A DNA stretch of 64,000 nt from assembly GCA_051362555.1 (NCBI GenBank), contig CM120640.1:46664788-46728787 (forward strand), read 5' to 3'. The notes under the pieces were generated by a model. It worked only from the letters and a program-made list of their open reading frames with translations. It did no database searches and was not told the DNA's origin. Origin of the DNA: Lingula anatina (Eukaryota > Animalia > Brachiopoda). Both the position numbers and the translations under genes were made by a program. Positions 19,761-63,892 of the stretch are shown here, one piece after another (position 1 is the stretch's first letter; every line of letters begins with the position of its first letter).

Positions 19761-28407
<8,647 letters not shown>

Positions 28408-30498
28408 GTAAACAGAAGAAATCTCTTATGGTGCAAGCCGTAGAATTAACTACCAACATTACTCCATGGAAAACATTGTCCAAGACTGCAGAAACTCTGG
28501 AGCAGCAACTCTGTCTTTACATCAGATGATATTCAAGAGAAGATCTTCAACTGTCAAGTGCAAATGCTATAGCCTTGTTTATTAAACAGATGGAAGTTTA
28601 AAACTTATTTAGAATTGCTTATTGAGAGGAAACTACTTTAACCTAATTGAATATTGTTGTTCAAAGAAGTTATTCCACAAATAAGATACATGTTACTAAG
28701 TATAGTACAAAAATATAATTATCATCAATCAGAGTTTGCCAATGAAATTTCAAAAGTCCAAGTCTGATGGTAATCAAAGTGGAGTTCTGCTAAACTAAGG
28801 TACTGCACAAATGTTTCAGTTTGATGGGTCGGAAAAAAAATAATTTTAGATGTATGACTCAAACTTGGTATGTCGCAACTTGTTTTATTCCTGATTAAGA
28901 AAATGGTATGTCATGGATAAAATTGCTATTGTACTTCAGTTTAAGGAAATCTCAGAGTAAAACATTTTGGTGCTTTGGGACAGTTTCACCTCTAAGATAC
29001 AGACCAAAATCTCTTCTTTAGATTTAACCTTAAATGCAGATCAGGAGTGCTTTTTGCAAAAATGTGGCCAATTTGTCAAATATTTTCATATTTAGAGAGT
29101 TAAAAAGGTGTAAGAGTTTTAAAATTAGACATACATATAAAAAATGATGAATATTCTCAGCACTGATTTAATCTTAATTTTGGTTTAGGTAAGTCCAGTC
29201 AACATGTGAAACTGGCCTTAATGTTTTATAGATTATAAAAGCGGCAGTGAAAGGAAAAGCAAGTTGCTGCATCTCTGTGTGAAGCCCCTTTTTTTCACCA
29301 GTGTAGTTATGTAAACACGTGAAAGAAGATTAGTTGTATAAATACATATTTGTATAGTTTTATAAATAAATAATTGATCTAGAAGATTTTTTTAATTCGT
29401 TTCATGACAAATTATAACCATGGTGTGTTAAGATTCAAGTGTACCCTGAGCCCCCATTTCTCCAAGTGACATTCGCTTTCAGTAGATCTGCACTGCAAAA
29501 GCTTTGGTAAAGGATCAGTAAAGGGTTATAAAGTAGTCTTACCCTTTAAGATCTAATTTGAGAAGAGAAATGGTATAAATGAAGATGAGTAATATTTTCC
29601 ATTCCAATTTGTAATTGCAAAGATGAATGGTACTGCACTTTTTTTTTCTGTGATTGTGCCCACGAGGCCCTTTACGTCTGATGACAAATTCTGATTGTGA
29701 CATGGAAATTCCAAGAAAAGTGTTCAATATGCTTTGATATCACCAAATGAACATATGCTGCCAATCATGTTAATTGAATAAAAGATAATCAAACAGATCT
29801 GTGTTCACTGCATTCCTTCAGGTAGTGCGCTCTTCAGTAAATAAAGGCGAGAAAACGCTTAAAAACAAACCAGGGTGAGGCTGTAGAAATCGACCATAAA
29901 CGGATATCATGACTTATTTGGTTCATCTATTCACGACAATATAGTGAGTACGTTGATGTATTGATTTTAGGCTTCTTACGTGTTATCATCAGTGTCTTTA
30001 CTTACAGAAACGTATGGAAAGTTTCCCGTGGATTTTATTGCGTGATAATGATTAATGTTCGAGCCTCCTACTCGGTCCACCTACATTACTATCTATGTCA
30101 TTAGTCCAGGAATACACCCAAGACTTGTCTTAAGGAAATAGTTCATTGTTGAATTAATAAAGATCCTGTTTTTAACATTTCGCGCTTATTGGAATACTAT
30201 GGGTTTTGGATATGTTCATCTACTTTGATTGCATGTTCTTAGTTACATTATCCAGATCAAAATACGTAACTAATATGTAAAGATTATAATCATAAAGGAC
30301 AACACTAAGAATTCCTTACCATACTTTACCGTACCGTGTTTTAATACTACGTCGTGTAGATAGGATAAGATGAAGATTATAGGATAGAACTTGTATTAAT
30401 CATATTTACTGCATATTGTTGTTATTTTTAATTAATATTTTACTGTAAACGCTGTCATTGTATTTTCTTAAGAAACTGCCCAAGGAATAATTATAATT

Positions 30499-33400
30499 AT
30501 GGCCCAAGTAGTCAAGTCTGGATGGCTGAAGAGATTTAGTCGTAAGTACAACATTTTGTTGAAGTTTGCAGATTTTGTTTATGAAAATTTATTTGTCTTA
30601 TAAAGCCACAGCTGGATTTAATTTTTCTTCAGTTTATTGATAACGATAATTAATTCTTACAAGTAAGTAAACATCAGTAAAGTCAAGTGTGATATATTAG
30701 TTCATCATTAATAGTCAATACCTTTCTCTTATAATATCTTCTAACAAATGTCAAATATTGTGTGTATGGTTCTCTTATTCCAGGGAGTTTATTTAGTGGA
30801 GGATGGAAAAATGTATGGGTAGTACTACATAAAGACAGTGCTTTAGTATTTTACAATAACCAGGGTGATCATACACCAAAGGGAAGTGTTTATTTAAATG
30901 TAAGTACATTTTTGTCACTTTTCATGAACATTAATTGTTGTAGTGAAAATAAACATTTTTAGAGTTACCAGAAATCATCTGTTACCAGTAAGAAAGGATT
31001 TTTCAAGCCATTAGCAAGCACCTAGTACACTACATGAAACAAGATTTAGTTTCAATTATTTCACAATGTGGGTTTTTTATCATTTTAGAATGTATGCAAT
31101 TTCCTAGCTGTTGGTAACTATACCAGTGTCATACCAGACAGGCCAACAGGGGTACAGGTAGAATGCCTGATAGCAGTACCACAAGAACCAAGCAAAACAG
31201 CTAAAATCAATTGGTTTCTGTGTAATTCACAACAAGAAGTAAAGTAAGATTTTTCAGTGTCAACAGCCAGTGTGAAACATTTATGCAGATTTACAGTAGT
31301 AACCTAGTTAGTTTAATATCATTTGTTAAGAAGACCTAAGGCTTATAATTCGTATAGGTGAGGTCTGCTAACTTAAAGATGGGACTATTTGCATAAGACT
31401 GCAAATTAGCTTAACATTGCATCATCCCATTCTTTTTCATTTATGTGGCATATGTAGTCTGTTGATTTAAGTTACATCTGCCCAGTCTAAAATTGTTCTT
31501 GTCTGAGTGCAACTTTAAGAGCTTGCAAATATAAAACAACTAAAGGTTTTGAATAAAAAAAATGATGATATCCAAAATTGATGATATACAAGTTGAATAG
31601 TGGATTACATTTATTTAATGATTTTTGTAACTACTTTATTTCAGTGATTGGATGTCTGCAATTGTATCAACAGTAAGTACTTCAACACAGGTGTAATTTT
31701 CAAACCTTCACATCACCAATCTTTAGGGAACAAAATTTTATTGATACAGGTTTGACAGATATTGTGCCTATGGTGCTTTCAATATTTCATGTTACTACTT
31801 TCTTCAATTTAATGAGACTGAGGCTGCTTTCACATTTATTTAAAACAAGTGCAATTTTTCTTTAGTTTTTGGAGTGATATTCATAATAAGGTATCTTATC
31901 ATTATTGTGAAAAAAAATTACACCTCAGCTTTCATCACAACCCTGGTGAAAAAAGGCCCGTAGTGCATCATTGTTTCAGTCACCCGTCATTACAACCATA
32001 CCATATTTATACTTTGATTCACACCAGCACAGAAATTGTTCTTGACAAATGGCAAAATGTATAGGTCAAATCGATGCAGGATCACAGGCAAATGGTTAAA
32101 TTACATTTATTTATACAGCATAGGCTTTAAAACATGTCTTTGTGTCATATTTCCAGCTCCCACCACCACCACAACAGCAGCAGGCAACGGCTCCAAGTGC
32201 ACCTCCATTTACTGCTAGCCAGCCACCAGCCAGTGGAGCAGCTCCTCTAGGATTTGGAGCAGTAGCAGGTATAAGATTAGTTTAGATGAAGTTCAGGGTA
32301 CACATCTAAAATATCATTATATTGTTAGATATTTTTTACTCCATTAATATGATTTTTTTTTCAGTATGGAATGGTCTTTTGATGTAATAGCGCACATATG
32401 AATTTTAATTTAACTAAAATACGGATTGGTCAAATATGGTTTATAACTGTTTGCAGTCTTATCTTTTGCAAATTAAAATCATTAAAATACCTTTTCCATA
32501 TTATTTCAGTAATTTTGCACCTGTAACATTTTAATTGCTCGTTACCTCTAAACATATCCTTGTTTTTGGATATGCTACAAATTTACTGTTTTTTTTCCAT
32601 TACAGGGGCAGCAGCAGCAGGCTCAGCACCCCCACCATATCCACAACCATCACAACCATATCCCTCAGGACCCCCAGGGGGATACCCAGCACAACCTCCA
32701 GGGGGATACCCTCAACAACCCCCTGGGGCATATCCACAACAGCCCCCTGGGGGATACCCACAACAACCCCCTGGAGCATACCCAAGGCAACAACAACCAT
32801 ATCCACAGCAGCAAGGTTACCCTCAGCAGCAGTATTACCCACAGCAACAGCCTTACCCAGGACAGCCAGGTACTGTCTGAAACTCATTTCTTTTGATAAT
32901 TTTCTACAGTTAATGTTTCACATATTTTGATAGATGAACAAACTGTATTTTGTGATCTATCTGTCTCTATATCCTTCTTTTGAAAGATTAAAAAGCAATA
33001 TGCAGATCATGTTTAGTTTAAGTGTTGATGTAAGGTTTTTCACAAGGTGAGATATGAATGGCTGGTTTTAAATCAGATTTTTGCAAGTTTGTTTCTTGTC
33101 CAGGCTGCCATCGCCTCAATTTTTATTGCTCACTATTTAGGCAGTTCTGAATTGCAGAAGTCAGATATCACCCAAATGACAGTGCACACAAATGTTACTG
33201 TACAAAGAGACCAGTGTACATTATCTGATTGCATTTCTTGCGTGCATCTGGTCTTGGAATAAGGCATCTGTAAATAAAACTGCATATTAATTCAACAGGT
33301 CCCTCTGGGTATGCTCCACCTCCTGCAGGTTACCCCCAGCAGGCCTATGCTGGTGCCCCCCAGGGAGCATATGCTGGTCAACAACAAGTGTATAGAAAAA

Positions 33401-33943
33401 AGAAGAAGAAGGGAATGTTAGGGGGCAATGCTGCAAAGATTGGTGCAGGTAGATAGCTTTTTTGAGAGAATTGTCTCCTGGAGAATATTCATGGAAGTAG
33501 TTTTCTTTTTAAGAAAACATTAACATTCCATTTGAAATTGAAAAATATTGATAGACCCTTCGGACTAACGGATTAGTCCTAGTTTATATGTAGAAAATAT
33601 TTGTCATAAAGCTTGGGAACAAATCTAGCTGACCAGGTTGAAATTCATTAAATAAAAAATTAAAACCAATGATACCCATTATAAATATTCTGGCTTTTTG
33701 AAAATATTGAAACTTTTTTCCTGATTATTTTGACTAGTTCTTAAAGTCCATGTCACTTATGTTCCAGGTCTTTTAGGAGGTGCAGCATTAGGATACGGAG
33801 CGGGTAAACTGATGGGTCACGGCATGGGCTGGGGATTTGGGGGTGGCTGGGGTCACCATGGCAGCTGGAGTTCACTGGACAGTTGGGGCAGTGGAGGAAG
33901 CTGGGGAAGTTGTGGAAGCTTTGGAAGTTTTGGTGGGGATTAA
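30499..33943 (+). CDS. PH-domain protein, PLEKHB/evectin-like, with Pro/Gly/Tyr/Gln repeats and a Gly-rich hydrophobic C-terminus; 347 aa, 8 coding exons
   Basis: Exons 30499-30541, 30784-30899, 31089-31243, 31645-31672, 32157-32268, 32606-32869, 33299-33448, 33768-33943; 1044 nt in frame. PH signature VKSGWLKR...GWKNVWVVL...LVFY...EVNDWMSAI; probable non-coding exon ending at the GTGAGT donor at 29944. Confidence 0.85.
32671..32790 (+). repeat. Coding 24-nt tandem repeat, 5 x PPG(G/A)YP(A/Q/R)Q
   Basis: Translation of PH-gene exon 6. Confidence 0.9.
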
Positions 33944-35343
33944 AGAGTCTGTATTGTTCACTCTCTTTACACAGAATGCCATTTTAGACACAAATGGATT
34001 GAGGTTAGATATATTGCTGAAAATCTATAAATATTCTGTATGCTTTAAGGATGATATACTCCATGTTTTTTATTTAGAGAACCATGGGCTAGAAAATAAT
34101 AGTTCAACACCATATATGTAATAATATTTCCACAAAGGGTTGTGTTTCTTAATTTTTTGTGTCAACACTTGTGAAAAAACTGATAATTTATTTATGAGTC
34201 ATAAAAATGAATTTGTTTAACTACTTTGTGTTCAACAGCCTGTTGCTGAAATGACATAAATTGTCTAGCAGAAATATTCTTGTTGAATGCCTTTCTCTTG
34301 TGAAGTCACTGAATTTTTCTGCATGATGACATATTTTGTATTCAGCATATTCTCACTAAATCTGCAATTTTAAGGTCCTTTAGTTCATATAAATGATTGT
34401 AAATATATTTTAGGCAAGGATTCCATTTACCTTTAATATTTATTTGAGACTGAATACAAAGATCTGTCTTTGTGAATATTACAGGTGTACACGTTTTCAA
34501 ATGGTAAATTTACTGCATTTGCATGTTGTTTTGATATATTTTGTGTAAATGTGTTCTTTAAAAATATATGTCACGGTAAAGACTTAATCATTTCAACCGG
34601 GGGAAAAATAATCAATTTTTCAGATACCTAATTTAAGAATAATAAAAAATTCATTTCTGTGTAGCAATTTTATGCTTATACTGTATAGAATGAAACTTTA
34701 AGGTAGTCTGGTTTTCCACTGTGTTGCTACCACTCAATAGGAGTGTTCTCATTTCAAGAATTTATCTCTTACAAAAAATACAGTATCTCAAAGTCAGGTT
34801 GAAATGATTGAGCCATTACTGTATCACTGCTTTCCATTCATATTGAAATTATATTATTCTGCTCTTCGTGTTGGATTTTTGTCCATAAGCTTGAAAACTT
34901 TATTTACAACAGGGAAGTTAGTCTCTTGTTCTTCCCCTTTGTGTATAATTGTCATTATATGTGTGTGTTATTCTGGAGAAAATATATCTAACCTATAATA
35001 TATTATAAAAATGCTATATAAAGGGTTTTGTGTAGTCAAGATTATGTAAATGGCCATGCACTGATTAAAAAAGTGAAGTTGGCTGAATAACTGTAAGAAA
35101 TTAGTTTTACACCTACCCAGTAGAATGTCTGTGAAGTTACATAAGCTCTTAAAAGTATGAATAGTTGGAGGAAATGTTAAAAACAGTGATAACATTTTTA
35201 ACCGTTTTTATATTATTATTATCAGTCATTAAGTTTTGGAGTAAATGTTTTATCTACGGGTTTATGTTCTTTGTTATGAGAAATTACTAGATTTGCTTAT
35301 AAGACAAGCATCCAACAAACCTCTGAAAAACTAGGAGATGCTT

Positions 35344-35573
35344 CGGGCTCTTTCTCAGTAAAACTCTGTAGATTGATCTTACTCTGCAGGGAATGCAATC
35401 AGATAAACAGATTGACACGCTTCCTCTTGGCATTGAGTAGAATGCAGGAAAGCTGATGTTTATACGAGTACTTTGGAAACAAGAGGAGGCATGTTAATCT
35501 GATTGCATTCAGCAAGAGTCCCGGGGAGTAAGATCAATCTACATAGAACCATAGTTTCATTGCAAATGAGCCC
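35344..35573. mobile_element. Degenerate foldback MITE between convergent 3' ends
   Basis: Nested inverted blocks GGGCTC/GAGCCC, TGTAGATTGATCTTACTC/GAGTAAGATCAATCTACA and GAATGCAATCAGAT/ATCTGATTGCATTC. Confidence 0.65.
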
Positions 35574-37038
35574 TTAGAGAGCCCAATCTGACCCCTCAAA
35601 AAGTAGGAAACTGCATTCTTTTTTTTTTCAACTATTTAATAACAATACATTTTGACTAATCTGATAAATGTCTACCACTGCAGCTCAGGCTTACTATGCT
35701 AAAAAGCAGACACATTGAAGGAAGTGGGGCTTTTTTTTTTTCAAAACTTTAAATGAATAAACTGAAAACATGGGTTGCAATTTTCTTAAAGTAATTCTTA
35801 CTCTGAATCCTAAATTGTTTTAAAGGGATTGGAATCTTGAAAAGGTTCCAGAGTCCACCCAACGTGGTGAGCTGCCCCACCCCTATCTAACATCCTTGAT
35901 CCCCTCGGTGAAATGTAGGATTTGGTTAACAATAGGCGTTTTTTTTTTTTGTTTTGTTTTTTTTTTTTTTTGTTTTTTTTTTTCTTTCAACATAACAGAT
36001 TGTCAATATACAAGTAGGATTATACAAATTCATTAAAAGACGAGACCGATAATGGAAATTATTTTATTTCATAACGTCATCAAACAAAATATAAGAATAT
36101 ACACTATGTACAACGAATATAAATTCAGAAAATTACTCTGAAGAAAGCAGATGTTTTGATCCTGGTCTACTTTCATTTCAACACCTCACTTAAGTCATAT
36201 TTTATCATTCATAGAATGAACTGTTCATGATGTAATGTTTAAGTGTCCAGAAACAGTGTCTTAATTTCTTTCTGTCATTATTTTAACCAGATTGACATTT
36301 CGAAAAAAGTGTCTCATACGCACGTTTAATTTGTTTTCATTCTTGATGGTTGTTACTCTGCTTATGGCTTAACCTTTTCCACAGAATAACATTTACGTTT
36401 GGTTTTCATTTGTAAAGTGACCATATACTAATACTGTCTAGATTTCTTACGAATTAACATCTTTACAGCAAATGAAAGCGTCTCGTTCACATGATGGCCA
36501 ACAACCTCCCTATAAGAAGGGGTATAATGACGTACATTTTTCTTTTTATATAAAAGATATTCATATCACACATTTAAGTGATGTCAGTTTGCAAAAGGCT
36601 ATCAACAGTTCACTGTCGCATCTCCATCTAGTTAAGCTGGACCCAAAACAGAACTATCTAGAAATTTTGCATCTAATGCTCTGTCCTCATCCACACACGT
36701 CGAGGGGGGTCTGCTTAGACTATGAAACACTGCACCACGTTTTGACATAGTTGAGCAAATGTTCAGATAACTTGGACGGATGAAATGCCCTACAAAAAAT
36801 GGAAACTTAATAAATATATAAACATAATATGCTTCTCAATCTAATATTTTAGAAGAAATATCAGAAATATAGACATATATCAACTCCCTATTCGGAGAGA
36901 GAAGACCAGTAAAACTTGCCGTAAATCAAGTATTTGCTCAAAATAGGAAAAATCACCACTGCAAAATTTCCAAAACTCTCCGCGTGGTTAAAACGGTTTC
37001 ATACGTATGTCAACTTACCAAGAACTTGGGTTTCCATT

Positions 37039-39790
37039 TTAGGACGTGGTCGTTGTTATACGTGCAGCCTCACTCCAGTAGCCCCCACGACCTGGTTTTG
37101 CTTTAATAGATACTTTATACAGTGTGTTGGGAATCAAACCATCTACTCTTGCTCCTTCTTGACGCGTTTCTATTTCCTGAAATAAATACATAGGCGTATC
37201 GTTATAAGGTTCATGTGTAATTAATTATCACAAGCATTTAAAGGTCGTAAGTCATAAACCAGTAACGTGGGATATCCCAACCACATCCCAACGTGGGTCC
37301 GTTTTGAACACTGCTATGCATTTTGTGATTCTATTTTTTCTTTTTTGTCCAAGGCAAAGCAGATATTTCAATTGTTTTACCCTTTGATCACATCCGGATT
37401 GATCTCAATTCCTTCAACTAAAAGTAAGTTCCTGCATGACTAACACTACTATCACTATGCGCCACACTGAAAGTGTTGTACTGATGCTTTACTCAAATCT
37501 AGCGTTCGATTAAGACAGTAAAATGTAATAAAATGTCCCCTTACCTTTATTGTACCGTGTTCGCTCTCCAATAAGACATTGTACATAAGCCCAGAATACA
37601 GTCTATTTGAACTTAGATTCTCGGGATGCGTCCACGACAACTGCAAATGCGACTGGCCCTTGTCCAAAGTTTTCAACTCTCTTACTGGTTTTGGTTTCAC
37701 TGAAAAAAAAGTTCTTTTTATTGTAATGTTTCAGTTGTTTTAGCAGTTTTACATGAGTGCATGAGACCTACATGTAGCAATATATCTTTATGCTCTTTGC
37801 GCGTACGTCAGACGCCTGAGATATCATATCAGTGTCATATCTTATAAAACGGTATTTGAAAGATCTTCCTACCGATTTCATACGTGTTGACCATTTCGTA
37901 GCTTGAAAAGGATTCTCCATGTTCGGGATGGGTGCCTCTGACGATGACATAATAGATGAACCCCGCCTTGAAACTGTCTATGCCGTCATCCTGTTGAAAC
38001 CTGCAGGTATTTCCTTTTGTGTGTGGGCACAGGTTCAATGACCCTGGACTGAAATAATAAATTTCAACTCAATTCAATTCAGTTCAATTCAAATCAATGC
38101 ATAATGATCTAGTTAAAATGTGCCAATCAAGAAGTACATGTTTATGATTGGATGGATATAAACATTCTGTATATGTGGTAACGTATGACGATCGTTCGGC
38201 GTCACTAAAATGAATTCGTGATTGTGGCTGATTCATTGTAGTCTATAAAACACCTGATAAAATAAAATCTCTGTGCAATGTGTTAAGATCTTGTTTGAAG
38301 AGTAGGAAAATATGTAGACTAGCGATCAATTGTTCTTGTAACGTTTCCTGGTGCAAACTCCACCTAATTTTTAAAACTCATGTGGTGACTTTATTCAGAA
38401 ATCCGAAACTCGGTGAAAATTAAGGGCAACAAGAGCGCTCTAGGATTCTTTTCGACGTGAAAAAATTTACGGCATGCATGATTTCAAGAGAACCTCACAC
38501 ATGATACCCTGACCCAGGGGTTTCGCTATCTTAAGCTACTTCACCAGCTGTTTCTTTTCCCTGGTCGATTTCTTTTTCAAATTTAAACGGCCACCTGCTA
38601 CATGTACATGTTACAGGTGTGAGTAGGCGTCTGGGGCATTCACTAGTTACTACTTGGCATTCGTTTGGTTTGTTGAGTTTCCTTGTATTAAATTTTCAAC
38701 TACATGTCGCTTCCCTGAAGATAAATAATTTAGTTTGTCGTCTTAAAAAGCGGGGGTGCTTTATGACGGAAGCTACTCATAATAGTTTCCCTTACCCTTT
38801 TTATCCAGCAAAACCTTTATAACAATATCATCTAAGCTTATGACAAACTATCACACTACTTACTGAACGGTCCAAAGAAGTGTGTAGTTAGAGTCCCGGG
38901 CAATTTGGGCGCTGTCGACCACTTCCCAACTACATATCATGTCTTCAAAGTTATTAGATATGCAGCGAATGTTGTCTGCCACTTTTGGTTTGACTGAAAA
39001 GAGCATAACATTCATAAATACCATCGAAATAAACCTACTGAAAAAAATCATTATAGTGGTATACAGGTCAAATACTTCAAGGGTCCCATTTCACAGGTCG
39101 ACCAAAACCCATTGCTAACCATCGAAAAAAACCCGACCCAAAACCAATTTCGCGCTAAGTCTTATCAAGACAAAAATGTGAAATCATTCTTGTGAAATTG
39201 GAGTCCTATTGTTGCTTTTGGGGTGAGCCATTGGACGCGGAGAAAACATTTCAATTCCCAAAAAGTAAACATGACTGAAGGCCATTGATCAAGTTAATGC
39301 GAGGTTAGATTACTTTGTTTAAATTTTACGTCTCTTAGAAATATTTTCGGAATTGTATTTCACCACAATTTGTGGTTTGATCAAGGAAGTCCATAAGTGC
39401 CAGTCTTCGATTAACTTCTCAAAATCCAGTTAGATTATTTAATTGTGAATGTTCATATTTGCCTCATACATGCATGTATTCGACACAGGCATTAGATTAC
39501 AACTTTCGCAGAAAAGAGGTGTAAATTAAAACAGCGGCGAAAACATTTTGAATAATTACGAATCGATTTACATCCTTGTACTTTCTTTAGTTCTGAATTG
39601 GTACCGAAATTATCAAAATCAATATCATAGATAATAGATTTAAGAGTCATTTTTTACGAAGATAAATACATCAAAGTATATCATTTTATCAAAAAAACTA
39701 ACACGTACCTCCCATGGGTGCTGCAAACACTGCACAGGGAATCAAGATAGCCAGATAGACGGTTGTCATCCTCATTCGTAAGCTTTCCAT
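37039..39790 (-). CDS. Secreted class I cytokine receptor-like protein: signal peptide plus one cytokine-binding module (two FN3 domains), no TM; 226 aa, 5 coding exons
   Basis: Exons 39790-39709, 38993-38864, 38048-37873, 37699-37545, 37176-37039; 681 nt in frame. Hydrophobic N-terminus VYLAILIPCAVFA; C-x9-C-x-W (CISNNFEDMICSW); second Cys pair CPHTKGNTC; VKPKP hinge; LSWTHP; LIPNTLYKVSIKA; WSxWS-like GGYWSE; TAA after ITTTTS. Confidence 0.88.
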
Positions 39791-39905
39791 TCTCACAACA
39801 ATTCTTTTCTCAGTGATGAACTTCAAATAACTGTCTTCTAAAACTTGATCAGTTGCCTCTGTATATTCTTGAGTAGGTTATGACTACTATTGGCTCGCAG
39901 GTCTC

Positions 39906-39962
39906 TTTTATAGACATCTTAATTTCCGGTTCCTGAGAAACGGCGGGGTGACAATGATGTCA
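39906..39962 (-). promoter_or_regulatory. Proximal promoter of the cytokine receptor-like gene: TATA, ETS, STAT, GC box and CRE/AP-1-like sites
   Basis: Minus strand: TGACATCA (39955-39962), CACCCCGCC (39942-39950), TTCTCAGGAA (39930-39939), ACCGGAAAT (39922-39930), TATAAAA (39906-39912), about 115 nt upstream of the ATG. Motif matches only. Confidence 0.68.
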
Positions 39963-47200: not shown

Positions 47201-49392
47201 TTAACCTCTACTAGCGACATCGGGTCGAGAAATGTTAATGTGGCGGCTGGTTCTTCCATTGCTAGACCTAGATTGAAGGGAAATTCATTTACGTTAGATG
47301 AAAAATTATGCCAATGTTGTATAAAAAAGTATTCAGAAAAGGACAGGGGAATAAGAACGGTGTGATTGTCGCGAGCGGTAAACACGTACCCTGTTGATCT
47401 TCAACTTTTGATAGTAACCAATGAGTGTATTCTTATAACGTTTCACATTTTTTACATTAGTCTGTATTCTCGAGGGTTTTTAATTTCGAATTCTTGCAAC
47501 TTTCCACATTATTGAGCGTTTTTCAATGTGTGCGGTGTCTGAATTACAAAAAGAGGCGACGTATGGGGAAAACTGTCCATTTGTTTATCTATTTAACTAT
47601 TTATATAATATTTAAAAATGCAGCCAACTTGCTAAACTAACCTTGTTCTCAGCATGGCTTTAGGTTTGGCGTCACTTTTAGCGTCTGTGTTTAAATCTGC
47701 CCAAGTCTTCCCACTGTCGTCAGAAATCTGCACGGTCAACCCGGGGAAAGCAACATTGGCTTGCAGAGTGTTGCCATTATATCTAAATAAGTCAGATAAT
47801 AATAATAATAATAATAATAATAAGGGTATATTTAACGATTTAAAGACTAATGTGGCTTTCTTAAATTCTATTCATTATTCATTATTTGCGAGTTTAATTT
47901 CTTGAAGATTTCAAATGATGAATATTTCTTGGCTTCTTTTTCTGGGATATCGAGAATGATTCTTGCACCACATTTTTGAAGTTTGTATATGTTTTCTAGT
48001 TTTCCACAGCTGCCCATATAATGGAGCAGTAATCTAGATGAGGTAGTATATGTGCATTATAAAATAGTTTTCTTGTTTCCAATGTTAGATAGCGTTTTAG
48101 TTTGGATAGAAGGGAATCAACTAGGGATGGTTTATTGTAAATTCTTTTTTCATTCCAGTTAAGATTTTCGTTAATATATACCTAAAAGTTTTTCTGATTG
48201 TACATTACCTAAAATTAAAATTATTAATTTTAATTTGATGCCAGACCTGTAGCCAGCAATTTCAGGGGGGTAGGGGTGGGGGTTATGAAAAAGTGGGCCT
48301 ACGTGAGTTCATAAGACCTAGATCAAATTTTGATTCAGAACGGGTGTTTCCGACCAAAGGGGTGGTTCCTCCACACCTTGAGGCATGGATACAAAATGCC
48401 TTAAATAAAAGATGATCATTATGCACTGAAAAAATTAGTATGCAATGAAATATTGAAACATGGGTTGATATATTTCAAGTTATTCACTTTACCTAAAGAT
48501 AGTTTCAAAGATTGATTCATTGTTTTACAACGCTCAACGCGACATCAGTTATGAATAGTTAAGTATAATTTTAAAGTAATTTAACTGGCCACACCATTGT
48601 ACTTACTTGGCGCCGGGACACGGCAGGTAATAAGACACGCCCATTTTGTCTAGGCGTGGCTGTTCCTTATAGCCTAAAAGATTAGCAAATCTTTCCCAGT
48701 CTTTCTTCCTCTGTTTTTCCCTCTCCACTTTGTTTGTAATATCTTCCCAGCTTGCCTTGTGCCACGCTCTTTCAGCTAGGGCCAACAACCGAGGGTAGAC
48801 ATTGAAATCAAATTGTTCGCCAGTGCGCATTGTTTCACTCCATAGATGTCCTTGCATGCCTGTAAAAAGCATGCAATAGCATTTAGAATATTGTACTTAC
48901 TTTTTCAAAATAAATACATAAAAATACGACGCCATTTTTTCTATATTATCTCTTTTAATTATGTATTCTATCACCTTCAACTTCTTGCGTACATCAATGT
49001 CTATTTAATCTCCTCTTCTAGAGCGTAGAATCACGGCTCACTACAAACGGATGATACGTTAGTTTATATTTATATTTACCTATGATATTCTCTGGTTTCT
49101 CTAAAGGCACGCACTGCGTTGAGTCCTTACAAAACTCCTCTTCAGTCAAAGGCTCGCCAGATCGTTTGTAGTCTACATTGGCAAAGAGGTTGTCCGGCAT
49201 GAACCCAAAGGTCTTTCTGGTATCGGTGAACCTAGGCCCCCAGTAATACCCCCTCTCCAAAGGATCTGGTTCTTGAGGGTGATCAAAATACAAGTGTGTG
49301 ACCTGGGACATCACTACCTACAAGCAACAAAGGTGTGCAATTAAGAACTTTCCACAATCCCGTTGATGTGTTTGAACTGGAGGAACAAATAA

Positions 49393-49441
<49 letters not shown>

Positions 49442-52400
49442 ACTTTTCTACGGTCATTTTATATAAGAATATATATCTCCACAGAATTTATTTTTGTGCG
49501 ACATCGTACTTTATATCCCGCATTTGCCAGGTCATACGCACGCCTCGCGGTTCCCCATTCCCAGACGTTTTGCCAAGCATTGCCATAAATTCGACCACTT
49601 TCTAGTTCTGTACGGTTAAAAGGAATCCCTTTTTCGCCTAAAAGTCCATCTTCCCAGGCAGCGAGGCCAAGGCCATGTGTGTCTGTAATAAAAAGAACAG
49701 TGATTAGGTGTATACTGCCAATTTTCAAAGCAAAAACCTTATTTTACTGTTTTGACTCTTTTGACTAGTAGTTTTGATATTATATGTCTTCCTTTTCAAT
49801 GATGATTGACATGCCGATATATAAATCTTTTGGCAATAAATTTATAAATTCACTGTATGGTGATAATTTCATACGTTACACCCTAATAACATAAAAAGTT
49901 CCGACCTGTTATATTGGATACTTTCTTCAAGAACATTTCCATTAAGTGTTCCTTGATACTAGCACTTGTGGCATTGACAGACGGAAAGTAATTTCGGCAA
50001 ATCGTAGAATTTATCCATATCCCATCTGGAACTTCATCACCGCCATAATGAAACCACTTCAATGGCTGAATATCCCGATGCATGTCTATTAGCGCCGATA
50101 CAACATGTTCTACAAATCTATAGGACGACTCTTGACAGGGGTTCAAAGCATTGTCATCAAAATATTGAATTGAAAGATATGTAGAAGTATCATTTGGTTC
50201 GGATAATAAGTATTGGTCTGCTACTGAATCCGGTTCCCCTTTTTCTTTAAGTTTGGCGCTTCTTGCCTTCATAGCGATAATGGCTGCGTGTGAATGGCCA
50301 GGAGTGTCTACCTCTGGTATGACTTCTATGTGCCTGTCGTTTGCGAATCGAAGTATTTCTTTATAATCATCTACAGTGAAATATCCGCTTCCAAGTCCTA
50401 CTCCGTTTGGCAGTGATCCCAGTTGGGATACGACACAGGTTTTCTCTGTAACATCATGACACCGCTTGGAACCAACCTGTAACGATGAAATATCATAATG
50501 CGACAAGAAGGTGGTTATATCTTTATGGTAATTTCAGGGGAATTTCTCATCAATGTATGATTTGAAATCACATCACATCTTTTTATATGATACTGCTTTC
50601 CCACCCCAACAAAGAATGGATAGACATTTTGAAACGCACACAATCAGAGCGTTTTTTTTTTTTTTTCAAATTAAACTTAGGTTTAAGTGAGCCTAGCCTG
50701 AATCAGTTGGAAAAGTGTTAGCAGTACTTACTGATGTCAACTCTTCTAATCCAGGTATTTCCAATCTCCACCCTTCGTCGTCTGATAAATGAAGATGGAA
50801 CTTATTCAATTTATATGACGCCATTACTTTAAGCAGCTTCAAAATATCTTCCTTCGTCCTAAAATTCCTAGCAACATCCACATACATTCCACGGAATGCA
50901 TACCTGGGGGCGTCCCTTACTGCTATTTTAGGTAGTTTATTGTCCAGTGTTATCAAGCTCAGCAATGTCTGTATGCCATAGAAAATTCCGGGAGCGGACG
51001 CTGATTGAATTTCTACATTTTTATTGCTATCGCTTATAGCAATGCTGTATGCCTCTGTGCTGGAACCCAAGCCACCTACTTTCACGTTCCCTTCTCTTAA
51101 AATGATAGCTTTCTGTTGCGGCCCTGGGGCAGAGTCCACCACAGTCAGAGTTAAAGCATCTAAAAAATTGATTTAAAAAGCTAAATATAACAAATGAGTT
51201 ATTGGAAATTTTGATAATTGACAGCGAAACAATACTGAACCCTTGGTTCAATACTCAAAGTTTCATTTCTACATAGGCCTGTGATTCAATACTCATTGTT
51301 TCATTTCTACATAGGCTTCATAATGTATAAAATGGCTTGCTGCTCGATTCTCATTTGATACACAGCCGACACAAAAATGAAATTTTAGATATTAAAAAGA
51401 AGAAATGCCTCATACCCGTCAAACTCCACGTCTCGTTGGAAAACTTAGGGTCAGCATACAGCATCCAGTCCCCACTTCCCAAATCCAACATGACGTTCGA
51501 GTCAACCGTCAACTGCACAGGTTTTGGAATCACTCCCAGTGGACTCTTCCCGAGGTTTGATATGTCGTTCAGTTTGTATCGCTTTTCAGGGGTGTAAGGG
51601 TCGTAATAATCCTTCAGATCTTCGTAGTTGTATCGCTTCCATTTGACGGCTGAATCCAGGGGGCTGACAAAGTTGAGGCTTTCACCTGAAGTACTTTGTA
51701 TGACCCGAGGACTTAAAGATGAATTCGAACTCGCTACGTACCTGAAACCGGCATTTAATCAACATTCAAAAAAGGTGTATTCAGATTGTACTTTGTCTGC
51801 GCAGTAAGGGATTGAAATACAATTTAAAGTTATGGTCATTTCAACCAAACGCTTGTTTTCAGTCAAATGAAAGGTTATGTTTCTGTTGATATAGGATGGC
51901 AATTATCATAATAATAATTACGAAAATATTGTAACCGATTAACACCCACAAAGGTTTCATTTGTCATTATAAACATTATTAGAGAAATATTACTCGATAA
52001 ATATGCATGAAATCATTAAGAAATCAGACAAAAATATTGTACATTGTATAATCACTCTTTTATCAAATATATTTATGGCCAGTTTGTTTTTAAACCTTAC
52101 CAATTTGGCATAATATCTGTCACGGCAACTGACCAGTATTCTCCCTTGAACTTAATGTCAAGTCGTTGTCCACCTGATAAAGTTTTAAAACCGTCATCTG
52201 GCTGCAACTTGAAAAGGCAACCCTTAATGTGGTAAATCTCTATTCCAGCTGTTTTATAAGCTAGACCATCTGGGTACGGCAGGTTGTCTGGCTCTATAAG
52301 TCTTATGTGACAAAAGTATATGGCCCAGTCGCCTTTATCAATCGGTTTTAAACCTTTATTTGTCAGTGAAATCTGCGCGTCGTAAGTCTTCCACGTATCT

Positions 52401-55400
52401 ACGGTGTTGTCTATAATGTCATAGCGGATTTCAAGGTTATCACCCACGTAATCCAACGTTTGCTGCGTCTGGCCCAATACTGAAATCAAGAAAGAAATGA
52501 CAAATCAATAAATAACTTTTACTATTTGTCAAATTATGGGATAAATCGAAAGGGCATTTTATCCACAGTAATGAACATATTGGTGTTTTCTAACGATTAT
52601 ATGCGTAATAAATCTGCTTTAAGGTTCCCTTGGTTGTTGCACGAGATACAAAATTACCGTCCATATTAAGATAAATGGTGTAATATTATTTGCGATGGTT
52701 GTCGTTATTACTATTACCGGATCACAATAACAATCACTGAAGTTGTGAGATAAACGTACTAACTGTGTCAAAGTATACATTCTCCTGTAGTAAGGCCTGT
52801 CTATTCCATGTTTTTCTCTCTCTTTCTATTCCTTGTTTGTCAACCATATTTACGAATATATACCCAGAGCAGAACAAGAGATCCAGGTGTGTACATGTAG
52901 GCTATGTGGCTGGCAATCATGTCTGTTTTCAAGACGCTTTGAAAAATTGTGTGCACTTTGTTTCTCAATTAAAACGTGTCTTGAACAGTCCTCTCCCCCC
53001 CCCCCCCCCCCCAATTGCACCATAGCATCAGGGACTGGCTTAGTCGCCGCTCTGTTTTTCTAAATTGAAATTATTTGCTATCGTGGCATCAGCGCAACGC
53101 CGTTAGTGGCTTTGGACACACAGGGTTAACAGGCGGTACAAACAGTGAACTGTAAGCAGCATAAGCAGCATAAATAACCTTAGATAAATTACGTGACCTG
53201 AATCCATGATTTAGTTGTAATTGCTATTTGATCTCTAAGGTGGGTCCATTGCCTGCTTTATTTCACAAACAGTCTTATTACTTTTTTTTTTTTTGAAAGT
53301 TCGCATTAAGTGCGCTACTATCAAAATCTCCCTCTCCGAGTCGATCTCGGGTCTTTCTGGTATGTCCTATTACCAGGCTGTACTCTTCGATATACACAAG
53401 ATACTGTGCTCTACTTGTTTAATGTAGGCCCTCACAATTAAGGCTTTTGGATTTTTTCTTTTTAGATATTGCTGATTTTTATTTTACGTTAGTAAAAGTG
53501 AATGTACTGTTTCTGACAATAAGGGAGTCAAAAAAATACGGCACGAAATTGTCACTCAGAAGGTCGCACTCCATGCAGATATTTAATCATGTTGTTCTAT
53601 AAAATAACACACCGATAAAATGATATGACAATTAATGGATGGGACTTTAGTCTACTCAGATAAATTAGTGTAATAAAAATTCCATAATATATACAGAGAA
53701 GAGAACGAGACTGATTATTGGAAACTGGATAGTCCGAAAGGCTGGATAATTGGGCTAACTGTGAGACATGGGATTTCACACTTTGCTAATAAATTTAGCA
53801 TCTTAGTCATTTGAAGGTACCAAAACTACTTGCACGAATAAGAATAAAATGGAGATTTACTATGCATAAAATATTTAATCTCACATGTCGTAAAATCGGA
53901 ATTTATGAACAGAAATGTAAATTTCAGAAAGACGGATAAGAAAGGGGTTACAGGAGATTTGAATGAATGAATAAAAAGAAGTCAGCCTGAGCATTAGTGG
54001 TAAGGCATCGAAAAATCTGGTCCGAAAACTATGAGGTTTTGACAATGGGTTACATATTTTAAGCAGGTTTCAGACCATTAAATTTTCTTAATCTGGACAA
54101 TAAAATACCAACGTTCAGGTTTATATGTATATTTTTATTAATGCTGAATAGTGTAAGCTGATCCAAACGGGCAAACCTCAATATTTGTTTGTTTATTTGT
54201 TATGTTTGACATTAAGGAAGTTCAAGGAAAATCCAAAACAGAAACATTCAGTTAATATCAGATAGGTCAAGGGCTTTATAGTCCGGTGGCTTAAGGAAAA
54301 AATCGTGACACGGCGGATAAAAGCACCAAATTTTGCATGTGGGTACCTTTTGACATTCTAAATCAAATAAGAGCCGTAGCCCACGGAAAAAATTTACCGT
54401 TTGGCCAAAAAATCCAAAATGGCCGCCAATTTATTGAAATCTTTAGAATTATGTACATACCTATGTTGATTTTTATCAAATAAATTATTTTCTCAGAGTT
54501 TTCCACACCCTTATTAACCATTTTATTCATATATGTCAGATAGCAAACAAGTTCCCTTGGACTTTTTGAAAAAATCCAAGATGGCTGTCATTTGCCATAG
54601 AAACAGCCATAGGAATACTAGTGCACAACTATTACCAGCTAGAACGATACGTTGTCCACTATCAAATTAAGTCTGTTTCTCAGATCTTTGTTACCCACAT
54701 AATATGTTTGTGGTGAGTAACTACGAAATGTTCTTGGGCATTTTGGAAAATCCAAGATGGCTGCCATGTGCCACAGGAGTTCTAGTAAACGGGGGATTCA
54801 ACTAATGGCAACTGGAAAGATTAGTTTTTCACTATCAAATTAAGCTGGTTTCTGAGTGTTTTCCACATCCTTTCTACCCACACAATATGTATGTGGTGAG
54901 TAACTAACAGTATTCTTGAGCATTTGAAGAAAATCCAAGATGGCCGTCATATGTAATAGGAATACTTCTAGTATTACAAAGGGTTGGAACTAATGCCAAC
55001 TAATTCACTATCAAATTCAGTTTATTTTTTTAGTGTTTAACACATTATTATTATTACACTGTGATACATATCTAGCAGGTAATAAATGTGCATATTTGAT
55101 CATTTTGAGAAAACCCAAGATGGCCGTCACTGGCCATAGGAATACTACTGGAATTACAACTGCACATCCATGGCTTTTCATCTACTACCAGGGTGAATTT
55201 GTGTTTGCTTATCAAGTTTTGCCCATCCTTAAAAAGTGTGCATTCTTGGATATTCTGAGAAAAAGATACCTACAATTTAACATAGGAATACTAGGTGGGT
55301 TTCAATTGCTGCTAGAGAGGCATATGGTTCATTATACAATTACATTTCCATGGGTTTGTTTTAAAAATAATTCATGATTTTCATTCCATTTATTATTACC

Positions 55401-60236: not shown

Positions 60237-62937
60237 TGTATAGCCGCATTTTGCAACTGCAACGCATTTTGCAACCAAAGAAAAACGCGTTTTGCAACTG
60301 CAATGCATTTTGCAACTAGGATTTTTTTTGTAAGTTCCTGAAACGGTTTGAAGTAGGCCTATGGGGTGTGGTTGTCCCATAGGGTGGTTGATTGTAATTT
60401 TTACATCGTAATTTCTTCTATCTACCCGAGGATCTTTAGTAGTGTGACTTTGCAGTCATTTTTTTTTTTTTTTTTTTTTTTTTTTTGGGGGGGGGGGGTA
60501 TATTTTTTTAATATCGTTGTTACTGTTATCCCCTATCCATTAAAGTGAGGAACATAAGACGTTGGGGATATTTATACTTGCCATTAGGCAAGTGCGCGTG
60601 TCCTTAGGATTTTTAGTGACTATGGGTATGTGTTGCCGTCCCTAGGGATGGTTGATTATTATCTTTACATTGTATTTTCTGCTGTTTACCCATAGGTCTT
60701 AAGGTTGAGGAAACTAAAATGTTGGGGTGTGCATAGACACCTTTTTTGTGACTTGGGGTATGGCCGTCCCTAGGGGGTGGGGTGATTAGTAGATTGTCAG
60801 AAAATGAAGCTGATTCCATAGATTGCACTAGAGTCAGATTCACCGCAGAGCTGGACCGACCCAGCTTGTATAGTACGATGTGTGAATCTGAAGGCGGTCT
60901 TCGAGTTAGGAAGGAAGGGGAAATTAAATGCAGAGAAAGAAGCATACAGTACTTTAAAATAACAGACCTTCAGTCGTATTCTTGAATGTAGGTCAAGTTA
61001 ATTAAAACCCATTCAAGACCCCATACTCTCAGGAATCCTAGGGTCCAAGTCCCGTTGTTCTTTAACATAAAACACACATGTTAATCACTGCTCTTGGCAG
61101 TTGAACGCTAGGATTCCTGAGTGTGTGTGGCCTTGAATTAGCTTTTAATTGGATTCCCTGACCTATATATTCATGCATATGGCTGGAAGTCCATTTAGTT
61201 CTGTACATGCTTCTGCTGTTCTCTACATTTCTCAAGGACCCATGCACTCATTAAAAATGACCGGTTCATCAAACTCCAACATTTCATGTTCCTTAAAATT
61301 TAAGGGTATACTGTAGATGGCGGAAATAACGATGTGAAAAATAGAATCAACTACCCCCGAGATAGCCACACCTGAAATATCATATACTAACATTCTCGGA
61401 AACCTATGCATTTCCTCAAAAGCTTATCAGCCCGGAAGTTTTCATGTTCCTAACTGTAATGGCGTAAGGGTAGAAGCACAAATAACGATGTTAAATTTAA
61501 AATCAATTAACCTCCCCAGGGACGGCCACACCCAATGTCACAAAAACCCAGAAGGACCCATACACATCCCCAAAGACAGGTTTTTCAATCCCCATAGCCT
61601 TGCGTTCCCAACTTAATTGGTCTAAGGGTAGATTGCAGAAATTACAATGTCAATTAAAGTCAACCGCCCCCAGGACCCCCCCCCCCAGGAAAAAATCCGA
61701 AGTGCCCTTCCACATCCAAAATGGTATGATGCCACATTTCATGTTCCTAGTATAAAATACGATGTAAAATAAGAATAGTCCACCGCCAGGGTCGACCACA
61801 CCCCAAGTCACAATTAAATTTTGCAAATCCCTAATGATAAGTTAATTAATCCCCGACGTATGAAGTTCCTAACTATGATGGTCTAGGAAGTAACAATGTG
61901 AAATAGATTATGCATGTATATAATTGTCCCTCATCTGCAAAAATGTCTCTTTTTGCAATACAATACAATACAATAAATTTTATTTCATGTCGGTTTTAAA
62001 TTGAATGGAAACATTAGCTGTTAAGCTATTCGCCGACTAGGTAAGGACAAAATACATATCTACAATAATGCAATATTGACACATGAAGTCTAGTAAGAGA
62101 GTAAAAAGAAAATCTTTCTACGAAAGAGTATACAGAAACACGTGAAAAACTTTCTACAAAGAGTATACAAACACACATGAAATCTATTAAGATAGTAAAT
62201 TTTAAAAAAGTTTTTTTTATGGGAAATGTGCAAAATGCTATACCTAAAATCAATTGTGAAAAACAGACAATTCTACATACAATGCTCACTGATACAGATA
62301 TATAAATATAAAAATAATGTAAACATGTCGAATTATTACACAGTTTCACCAAGGAGTTATAACAGAGTCTGTTATAACTCCTTGGTTTCACTAAAAGCAT
62401 ATAGGTTACACAGGCTACATCTGCATTTGGGTCCTTCCCAAAGCCTTAAAAGTGATTTAAACTCATTTGAATTGATGCTTTGCTTTAAGTCATTTGAGAG
62501 ATCATTCCATATTTTTGGCCCAAGATATGACAAGGATTTTTTGCCGTATGTCACTGCGTTAAATCTGGGTATATTTAGAGTCTTTTCTCCTCTAAGGTTG
62601 TAACTTGTTATTCTTTCCTGGAAAAGGTCGGAGATGTAGGAAGGTGCAAGTCCATGTATAGCTTTGTAAACCTCAAGTGCAAGCATACGTAGCCTGTTCA
62701 AGTGCAGAGTGCTGAGGCCTGACATATTTAAAAGCTCGTCGTAACTGCTTGTGTGGCTGTCGTAGACAAATCTTAGATCCCTTTCCTGTATCTTTTCTAA
62801 TTTTTTCATATTTCCCTTACCACAAAAGTGCCATACTAACGGACAATAATTAAAGTTTGATAATGTAAAGTGCCTGAAAATGGCCGCATTTTGCAACTGA
62901 ACGCATTTTGCAACCGGTTGCAAAATGCGGCTGTACA
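60237..62937. mobile_element. TGT...ACA-ended non-autonomous DNA transposon (Ginger-like, tentative) containing a foldback repeat and a LINE
   Basis: TIRs TGTATAGCCGCATTTTGCAAC / GTTGCAAAATGCGGCTGTACA; repeated GCATTTTGCAAC; flanks acagt and ccagt (imperfect 5-bp TSD); inverted internal blocks about 60330-60850 versus 61300-61900. Confidence 0.68.
61957..62877 (-). mobile_element. 5'-truncated LINE (CR1/L2/Crack group): ORF2 C-terminus, 3' UTR and (TATTG)n tail
   Basis: ORF 62372-62977 has NYCPLVW...KLEKIQER...LALEVYK...APSYI...YNLR...GPKIWNDL, typical of post-RT ORF2; minus-strand AATAAA followed by a TATTG tail at 61957-61986. Confidence 0.9.
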
Positions 62938-63892
62938 CCAGTTTTATGAATCCCCAGCATTTCATTCTCCCCAACATCTATCTGGACAATTGAACCTTTC
63001 AAATCATTCAGATTTCAGACTTTCCGACCTTAAACGTTTTCATTAAGTATATATGGCAGGGGGTCTATCTTTTCAAACGAGCGAGATATTCTCAACATAT
63101 TATGTTGCATATTAAAAGAAAAATTTCAAGTCATAACATTCATGTCATAGTTACATAAGAGATACTTCTATAACAAGAATAATGGAATAGACGGTTTGTT
63201 AAAGATATTAATGTACAACTAATGTGGGGCAAAATTAAAACCTCGATCTCTGCCTAGTAGAGCTCTCTACCTACAATGGATAGACACACATTCTTGCTAC
63301 TGTGTACTAGCCAATACTATAAACCTGCGCCGTCAATCAAATCACACATGGTCAGCTTATGTCCTAGTTTAAAGGTAGGCAAAGTGTTTATTGATAGACT
63401 TTGTTTGTCTTATAGTGCCTTAGACCTGCCGTGATTAATCGTCCAAATATAGTCATTTTTTAATCGTCCTGAAATCTGAAAAATCGCAAACACTAAATGG
63501 GTAAAACAAAAAACTAGCTTTATGCTATTTATAGAATTTAATCTCACGGGTATCTACGAGAACATCTGAAAATAACAGCTTCAATAAACTCCAAATACGC
63601 TCTATCATGTGAGTGAGTAATGTTACTCCACCCCCACCCCCACCCCATTGCAAATACACGCGTCACTCAAAATCATTGTCTAGAATGAAACATCATATCG
63701 ACCTTTACGCCTAATTTCCACATCCAACCAGAACTGAAACATGTATGGATACAATGTCCCATGAAGTGGTAATATACTATGAAGTCTCCTAAGGGTCCTT
63801 ATTTTTTAACCAATGAAATCGCCTTCTATCATGAAGTAGTAATTCTTATCCTATGAAGTGGTAATACACTATGAAGTATCTTAACATATATA

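What the first reader, a model, noticed from the sequence alone, without database searches (positions are those of the whole stretch)
37039..39790. Stand-alone secreted cytokine-receptor module with EBI3-like architecture in an invertebrate
Seen: intact 5-exon, 226-aa gene with signal peptide, four-Cys FN3 domain, WSxWS-like FN3 domain, then stop; no Ig, TM or Box1. The ORF track shows only three fragments of it. Established: this layout and size match vertebrate EBI3 (IL-27/IL-35 subunit) and resemble IL-12p40, CRLF1 and soluble IL-6R, whereas the characterised fly receptors Domeless and Eye transformer/Latran are membrane-bound. Inference: a decoy, carrier or subunit of a heterodimeric helical cytokine, pointing to an uncharacterised extracellular layer of JAK/STAT control in molluscs. 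Orthology to EBI3 is not claimed.
Basis: partly seen in the sequence, partly recalled or inferred. Interest (0 to 1): 0.88.

Follow-up and report, generated by a model that had tools for sequence, protein, structure and literature searches.

The report
Secreted cytokine-receptor module in a brachiopod
A lamp shell (the brachiopod Lingula, not a mollusc) transcribes a complete small gene that encodes only the ligand-binding module of a cytokine receptor with no membrane anchor, so it likely makes a secreted protein that binds and buffers the still unknown signal of this animal's JAK/STAT receptors.

Summary
The gene is real. It has five coding exons on the minus strand and encodes 226 aa: a signal-peptide-like leader, a four-cysteine FN3 domain, a second FN3 domain with a half WSxWS motif, then a stop. 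RNA reads from 3 of 7 laid runs confirm all four coding junctions. They also show a fifth intron 20 nt after the stop, spliced to a non-coding exon, so no transmembrane exon is used at the depth seen. The protein is 225/226 identical to a Lingula anatina record auto-named 'cytokine receptor-like factor 1', so the animal is a brachiopod, not a mollusc. The EBI3 likeness is architectural. Its closest sequences are spiralian Domeless/gp130-type receptors (27-35%), EBI3 is not among the best 60 solved-structure hits, and a clade with CRLF1 is weakly rejected. Lingula also has at least three transmembrane class I receptors. One unnamed 253-aa protein has the same stand-alone layout, and amphioxus has a published soluble Ig+module receptor. 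Best reading: a secreted ligand-binding regulator, likely a decoy or carrier, derived from a truncated Domeless-type duplicate. Ligand, secretion and direction of effect are untested. New variant of a known kind.

The parts
39709..39790 (-). coding exon 1: ATG and signal-peptide-like leader (aa 1-27), phase-1 intron follows; RNA depth continues upstream into the 39748-39931 bin (5' UTR, start not mapped)
   Evidence: junction 38993/39709 in 10 reads
38864..38993 (-). coding exon 2: first half of D1 with C38-X9-C48-X-W50, phase-2 intron follows
   Evidence: junction 38048/38864 in 13 reads; Pfam IL6Ra-bind above its cut-off
37873..38048 (-). coding exon 3: second half of D1 with C78-X7-C86 and the aromatic loop residues F97/F101, phase-1 intron follows
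   Evidence: junction 37699/37873 in 10 reads
37545..37699 (-). coding exon 4: first half of D2 with W152 and Y164 (aligned to PRLR W139), phase-0 intron follows
   Evidence: junction 37176/37545 in 13 reads
37019..37176 (-). exon 5: second half of D2 with the half WSxWS motif, TAA stop at 37041-37039, then 20 nt of 3' UTR up to a GTAAGT donor
36790..37018 (-).
   Evidence: 29 spliced reads in X7, X8, X9
36436..36789 (-). exon 6, non-coding 3' UTR; no TM-like open stretch in any frame; the 3' end is approximate (low depth reaches about 36070; ATTAAA at 36330, AATAAA at 36068)

Best explanation
This is an expressed, spliced Lingula gene for a predicted secreted, stand-alone class I cytokine-receptor module that likely arose by truncation of a Domeless/gp130-type receptor duplicate and likely binds the ligand of one of the animal's transmembrane class I receptors, lowering or buffering JAK/STAT signalling as a decoy or carrier. 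Shown: gene structure, splicing, stop before any membrane segment, the two-FN3 receptor fold (as a confident model), and the existence of transmembrane paralogs. Inferred: secretion (from hydropathy), ligand binding at the D1-D2 elbow (aromatic residues F97/F101 and Y164 sit in the loops that carry PRLR W72 and W139), origin from a receptor duplicate, and an inhibitory or buffering outcome.
For: RNA junctions match the model, and the stop is followed by a spliced non-coding exon. tblastn with 20 longer relatives finds only these exons in the 64-kb window, and a convergent PH-domain gene lies close downstream. Three genomic versions all end at the same residue. Of the coding variants shown in reads, 7 of 10 are synonymous where 78% of sites are non-synonymous, p 0.0015; all 5 indel rows lie outside the CDS. 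The AlphaFold2 model has pLDDT 88.7 and matches PRLR, CRLF1 and gp130 ligand-binding modules at Z 17-18, rmsd 2.4-3.2 over about 190 residues. The best CHD-level scores are to an unnamed long receptor and to Mytilus, Haliotis and Patella Dome-type proteins. The C-X7-C spacing is shared with 25 of 54 relatives and the single-Trp motif with most of them; only 11 of 55 keep the second Trp. Y164 aligns with PRLR W139, a ligand-contact residue (PMC10312770 passage); position 97 is aromatic in 29 of 54 relatives. Lingula has at least three TM class I receptors. Soluble receptors can compete with their membrane counterparts (PMC8780587 passages).
Against: No ligand is known or was identified here, and the direction of effect cannot be read from sequence. 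Soluble modules are often agonists or secretion chaperones (PMC8780587). An intact-looking module need not bind ligand: fly Et/Lat does not (PMC4751595 section 8). The tree does not resolve the parent receptor; grouping with two Lingula receptors is merely not rejected (p-AU 0.315 and 0.237). RNA depth is low (about 1-12x), joints under 3 reads are not listed, and 14 variant rows were hidden; if all were non-synonymous the selection signal would vanish (p 0.35). No ortholog above 50% identity exists in the searched collections, so long-term conservation is not shown.
Confidence: 0.5

Rival explanations
1. It is an agonist subunit, as EBI3, CRLF1 or soluble IL-6R are: it would co-fold with or capture a helical cytokine and present it to the long gp130-like Lingula receptor, forming a composite cytokine evolved independently of vertebrates.
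For: Same layout as EBI3, and an IL27B cluster is the top ESM Atlas feature hit (0.94, 193 of 256 features). There is no spare cysteine in the mature chain, which fits a non-covalent pair as in IL-27 (recalled) rather than a p40-type disulfide. Lingula has one long Ig-bearing receptor plus shorter ones, which would allow heteromeric complexes. The amphioxus soluble receptor binds a helical GH-like ligand, and such a route is discussed for it (PMC9010856 section 5).
Against: EBI3 is not among the best 60 of 71 solved-structure sequence hits. The Pfam IL27B N-terminal model does not match. A clade with CRLF1 or with the amphioxus protein is weakly rejected (p-AU 0.043 and 0.047). The Atlas margin over unrelated receptor fragments is 0.01-0.02. 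IL-6-family cytokines were detected only in vertebrates in a recent survey (PMC13203501 passages).
Confidence: 0.27
2. It would act on the receptor rather than on the ligand: a soluble counterpart of fly Eye transformer/Latran that docks on a Dome-type ectodomain and blocks productive dimers.
For: Et/Lat has a homologous module, binds Dome and binds no Upd ligand (PMC4751595 section 8). The protein's nearest sequences are Dome-type receptors.
Against: Et/Lat is membrane-bound and also binds intracellular JAK and STAT, which this protein cannot do. The elbow aromatic residues are retained.
Confidence: 0.1
3. It has been co-opted outside JAK/STAT signalling (for example binding a non-cytokine protein or a microbial product), or it is a weakly constrained remnant of a receptor duplicate.
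For: No close homolog outside Lingula. Expression is low and was seen in one of three studies. CRLF3 shows that a module of this kind can diverge in function (PMC1963337 passages).
Against: All structural hallmark residues are kept, variants are mostly synonymous with no coding indel, and a second protein of the same layout exists (P0015).
Confidence: 0.09
4. It is an artefact: the short isoform or a broken piece of a transmembrane receptor gene whose other exons lie downstream.
For: This doubt is raised for the amphioxus soluble receptor (PMC9010856 section 5). RNA depth here is low, and no whole genome was held.
Against: The stop lies inside exon 5, before the only donor used. Exon 6 has no TM-like frame. 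No further receptor-like exon is found in the window, and an expressed gene on the opposite strand fills the downstream region.
Confidence: 0.04

Closest known systems
EBI3 (IL-27B; beta subunit of IL-27 and IL-35)
   Same: Leader plus two FN3 domains, four Cys, no Ig, no TM, similar length (EBI3's 229 aa is recalled); top ESM Atlas feature hit.
   Different: No detectable special sequence affinity. This protein keeps the first Trp of the motif and lacks the second, whereas EBI3 is recalled to do the reverse. No partner cytokine is known.
CRLF1 (NCBI's automatic name for this gene)
   Same: Soluble class I module from its own gene; top Foldseek hit (8d7h_A, E 1.3e-13).
   Different: CRLF1 is 422 aa with nine exons and a conserved WSXWS (PMC8780587) and an N-terminal Ig domain (recalled). 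Identity is about 22-23%, and a shared clade is weakly rejected (p-AU 0.043).
Amphioxus GH-receptor-like / GH-binding protein (PMC9010856); Branchiostoma 'prolactin receptor-like' P0055 has the described layout
   Same: An invertebrate soluble class I receptor with only an extracellular part; reported to bind a helical ligand.
   Different: Chordate; has an Ig domain; its stand-alone status is questioned in the review; separate clade (p-AU 0.047). That P0055 is the same gene as the published GHRl was not verified.
Spiralian Domeless/gp130-type receptors (Mytilus DOME P0012, Haliotis P0018, Lingula P0054, P0153, P0102)
   Same: Closest sequences (27-35%); same C-X7-C spacing in many and the same single-Trp G[YF]WS motif.
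   Different: They carry an Ig domain, a TM helix and a cytoplasmic tail, most with further FN3 repeats.
Drosophila Eye transformer/Latran
   Same: A shortened Dome relative acting as a regulator.
   Different: Membrane-anchored, binds Dome and intracellular components, does not bind ligand (PMC4751595).
Unnamed protein P0015/P0157 (ENA and Logan contigs of 2179 and 1699 nt)
   Same: 253 aa: leader, short linker, the same two-domain module, stop 11 residues after the motif; 29% identical; this protein is its second-best match of 54.
   Different: Organism unnamed and gene structure unseen; a shared clade is neither shown nor rejected (p-AU 0.415).

Membership tests
Class I cytokine receptor homology domain | two tandem FN3 folds | tested here: met
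   AlphaFold2 model pLDDT 88.7; Z 17.8, rmsd 2.8, 189 aligned to PRLR; Pfam IL6Ra-bind and fn3 above cut-off
Class I cytokine receptor homology domain | C-X(9-10)-C-X-W-X(26-32)-C in D1 (PMC1963337) | tested here: met
   C38-X9-C48-X-W50-X27-C78
Class I cytokine receptor homology domain | third to fourth Cys spacing of 10-15 (PMC1963337) | tested here: not met
   X7; the same spacing occurs in 25 of 54 relatives, so the vertebrate-derived rule is too narrow
Class I cytokine receptor homology domain | WSXWS motif in D2 | tested here: inconclusive
   Half motif G-Y-W-S-E-A; of 55 aligned modules 48 have the first Trp and 11 the second
Class I cytokine receptor homology domain | intron phases 1-2-1-0-1 around the module | tested here: met
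   1-2-1-0 for the four coding introns; the fifth lies after the stop. The pattern is cited for a class II receptor in PMC8863823; for class I it is recalled
EBI3 / IL-12-family beta subunit | leader plus module only, no Ig and no TM | tested here: met
EBI3 / IL-12-family beta subunit | match to the EBI3-specific D1 profile (PF24031) | tested here: not met
   not listed at E up to 1; cut-off 42 bits
EBI3 / IL-12-family beta subunit | orthology by phylogeny | not tested
EBI3 / IL-12-family beta subunit | forms a heterodimer with a four-helix cytokine | not testable with these tools
   no candidate partner and no genome
CRLF1 | N-terminal Ig domain and intact WSXWS | tested here: not met
CRLF1 | one clade with vertebrate CRLF1 | tested here: not met
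   p-AU 0.043 with P0129, a CRLF1 ortholog; borderline, long branches, one of five uncorrected tests
Domeless/gp130-type signalling receptor | module sequence most like Dome-type receptors | tested here: met
   top scores to P0016, P0012, P0020, P0018, P0023, P0021; tree placement unresolved
Domeless/gp130-type signalling receptor | membrane-proximal FN3 repeats, TM helix, cytoplasmic JAK site | tested here: not met
Soluble cytokine-binding protein (functional class) | is secreted and binds a receptor ligand | not testable with these tools
   leader and elbow aromatics are present; needs experiment

The most novel reading that the evidence does not exclude
This protein and the unnamed 253-aa protein P0015 are members of an old, undescribed family of secreted cytokine-receptor modules in protostomes that pair with a still unknown helical cytokine to form a composite ligand for Domeless-type receptors. 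That would be an IL-27-like design evolved independently of vertebrates, and the protein would be a ready bait for the missing spiralian JAK/STAT ligand.
Probability: 0.12. Interest if true: 0.85.

Novelty: new variant of a known kind. Interest (0 to 1): 0.45.

Why it matters
Dedicated genes for soluble class I cytokine receptors are a familiar vertebrate device (EBI3, p40, CRLF1), with one published and still debated case in amphioxus. An RNA-supported case in a brachiopod, beside at least three transmembrane paralogs, suggests that spiralian JAK/STAT signalling has a multi-receptor system with extracellular control, richer than the fly's Dome plus Et/Lat. The ligands of spiralian Dome-type receptors are an open question, and a small soluble module is a convenient affinity bait. 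The limits are that a recombinant Dome ectodomain could serve as bait too, the gene is already annotated automatically, and truncation to a soluble module is a common evolutionary outcome.

Tried and rejected
No whole genome was held, so there was no genome-wide paralog or ligand screen. No indexed RNA holder was listed; nine same-species-label raw runs were listed and seven laid. Word-indexed homolog searches found only the protein itself and P0015; they are insensitive at 30% identity. Complex prediction of the module with the Ig+module of the long Lingula receptor P0054 gave no answer (score 0.00, alignments not used) and is not evidence either way. The 55-row careful tree did not finish and the quick tree left the protein unplaced; the 28-row careful tree also left it unplaced. 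A STAT and NF-kB motif scan of 3 kb upstream showed nothing beyond chance: 3 against 1.36 expected, 1 against 1.27, 0 against 0.23. One hydrophobic stretch near 36134 ends in a stop at once and has no RNA joint, so it was rejected as a TM exon. A GPI anchor was rejected because there is no C-terminal hydrophobic tail. Literature: the four accessions occur in no paper of the library. 'Lingula anatina + immune + cytokine receptor' gave one paper on IL-1 (listing only). Searches for soluble invertebrate or mollusc receptors gave no description of such a protein in a protostome (listings and abstract starts). The library lacks most subscription journals, and no supplements were read, so tables of PMC13203501 or PMC12162339 could list this protein. 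Earlier scan findings: none returned.

Full report
Observation. The minus strand of 37039-39790 holds five coding exons (39790-39709, 38993-38864, 38048-37873, 37699-37545, 37176-37039) with GT-AG introns, giving 226 aa and a TAA stop. Intron phases are 1-2-1-0, the pattern reported for helical-cytokine receptor ectodomains (1-2-1-0-1-0 for a class II receptor in PMC8863823, passages; recalled for class I). The only hydrophobic stretch is the N-terminal leader. The mature chain has four cysteines, C38-X9-C48-X-W50-X27-C78-X7-C86, and two N-glycosylation sequons. Pfam gives fn3 and IL6Ra-bind above their cut-offs.

Expression. Nine RNA runs with the same species label were listed and seven laid. 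X7, X8 and X9 (one study, apparently unstranded) show all four coding junctions exactly as modelled, with 10, 13, 10 and 13 reads. They also show a fifth junction, 37019 to 36789, with 29 reads; these five are all the joints listed. The fifth intron starts 20 nt after the stop and leads to an exon with no TM-like frame. X1, X2 and X4 cover the neighbouring gene well but not this one, with about 6% of each run read; X5 is no test. Depth is low, and joints under 3 reads are not listed, so a rare isoform is not excluded.

No hidden receptor body. tblastn with 20 longer relatives hits only these exons in the window. The next gene downstream is an expressed PH-domain gene on the opposite strand, ending near 35.4-35.9 kb.

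Constraint. Among the 40 base differences shown (14 more hidden), 10 fall in the CDS: 7 synonymous and 3 non-synonymous, against 78% non-synonymous sites (p 0.0015; 0.003 with transitions weighted twice). If all hidden rows were non-synonymous, p would be 0.35. The 350-nt 3' UTR exon shows 15 substitutions and three indel events; the CDS shows no indel. This is polymorphism, not dN/dS.

Organism. An exon-3 query retrieved one protein, P0005, which is 225/226 identical to the window model. It and its cluster mate P0006 are Lingula anatina records XP_023931107.1 and XP_013418713.1, auto-named 'cytokine receptor-like factor 1'. Lingula is a brachiopod, so 'molluscs' is wrong. All later work used P0005.

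Relatives. The exhaustive search gave 173 hits at E up to 0.001, of which 150 were listed and many are unrelated multi-FN3 proteins. I examined 65 by coverage and left out nine (seven without the CxW motif, two without a test). The other 56 were aligned with the query and two cluster mates, and four rows were dropped as near-duplicates or truncated, leaving 55. The best module-level scores are to an unnamed long receptor (P0016), Mytilus DOME (P0012), P0020, P0015, and Haliotis and Patella proteins, at 27-35%. Names were looked up for 20 hits. Three are Lingula TM receptors: P0054 (1360 aa, Ig + module + FN3 repeats + TM), P0153 (746 aa, short tail) and P0102 (740 aa, Ig + module + TM). Five of 54 relatives end within 25 residues of the motif. 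P0015 has a leader and no Ig, like this protein, and comes from two short contigs with the same length of product. P0021 (Patella) and P0055 (amphioxus) have leader + Ig + module. P0088 and P0115 look partial by eye. The C-X7-C spacing is shared by 25 of 54 relatives, and only 11 of 55 modules keep the second Trp, so the 'degenerate' motif is the usual invertebrate form.

Phylogeny. Neither tree places the protein with support; the nearest rows by path are P0016 and Haliotis, Owenia and Mytilus receptors. AU tests on the 28-row tree gave: with CRLF1 (P0129, identified) p 0.043; with amphioxus P0055 p 0.047; with P0015 p 0.415; with Lingula P0054 p 0.315; with Lingula P0153 p 0.237. The two rejections are borderline, uncorrected, and involve long branches. 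EBI3 was not in the trees.

Structure. AlphaFold2 on the 59-row alignment gives pLDDT 88.7 and pTM 0.79 with two beta-sandwich domains. Foldseek ranks CRLF1, gp130 and PRLR first. VIA-align gives PRLR Z 17.8 (rmsd 2.8, 189 aligned), CRLF1 17.6 and gp130 17.1. A 200-residue chain of the IL-27 complex (7u7n_C, probably EBI3 by its length; my inference) scores 16.0 with rmsd 3.8. By sequence, PRLR, CRLF1, LIFR, IL-13R and gp130 lead, IL-12p40 appears at E about 0.01, and EBI3 is not among the 60 shown of 71. In the other direction, the ESM Atlas feature search ranks an IL27B cluster first, 0.94 against 0.92-0.93 for others; for P0015 it ranks third. In the PRLR alignment Y164 matches W139, and F97/F101 flank W72; both PRLR residues contact hormone (PMC10312770, one passage).

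Mechanism. The module keeps what a ligand-binding ectodomain needs and lacks everything needed to signal. The simplest working model is a secreted binding protein for the ligand of a Lingula TM receptor, acting as decoy or carrier (0.5). An agonist, composite-cytokine role is the main rival (0.27). Receptor-directed inhibition as in Et/Lat (PMC4751595, outline and section 8), co-option, and artefact are less likely. The ligand need not be a helical cytokine: shrimp Domeless is reported to be activated by a C-type lectin and by peroxiredoxin 4 (PMC5645147 and PMC9195186, search listing only).

Prior knowledge. Soluble class I receptors from dedicated genes are established in vertebrates (PMC8780587 passages; PMC1963337 passages). 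A soluble Ig+module receptor that binds a GH-like cytokine is published for amphioxus, with doubts about a split gene (PMC9010856 passages and section 5). Surveys trace EBI3 to cartilaginous fish (PMC12162339 passages) and CRLF to cyclostomes (PMC13203501 passages). My searches found no description of this protein or of a protostome leader-plus-module gene; the library is incomplete and supplements were not read.

Verdict. New variant of a known kind; interest 0.45.

Noticed in passing
window 29900-35400 (+): Convergent, well-expressed gene for a PH-domain protein with a long Pro/Gln/Gly-rich C-terminal part; exons from RNA joints, PH match.
   Followed up: partly
window 48600-52500 (-): GH20 beta-hexosaminidase/chitobiase gene with a CHB_HEX domain.
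   Followed up: partly
window 14571-14855 (-): Exon matching ICAP-1 integrin-binding protein, PF10480.
   Followed up: no
window 21240-21548 (+): Exon that looks by eye like part of a TFIIS-type elongation factor; no Pfam match at E 0.01.
   Followed up: no
window 27065-28126: Very deep RNA pile-up with many loose ends and differences, probably a transcribed interspersed repeat.
   Followed up: no
window 62372-62977 (-): 201-aa open stretch resembling by eye the C-terminal part of a LINE-type retroelement ORF; no Pfam match.
   Followed up: no
proteins P0005 and P0006: Two NCBI records on different scaffolds (86.6 kb and 828.8 kb) differ by one leader residue, and the window differs from both at residue 60: haplotypes or a very recent duplicate.
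   Followed up: partly
proteins P0054, P0153, P0102: Lingula has at least three transmembrane class I receptors of different build (long gp130-like, short-tailed, and Ig+module+TM); two are annotated as uncharacterized.
   Followed up: partly
proteins P0012, P0018, P0020, P0028, P0029, P0039, P0090: These Dome-type receptors (P0012 and P0018 named as molluscan) all end in T-E-L, a possible PDZ-binding tail (the PDZ reading is my inference).
   Followed up: no
protein P0021: Patella vulgata model with leader + Ig + module and no TM, ending right after D2; a soluble form or a truncated gene model.
   Followed up: no
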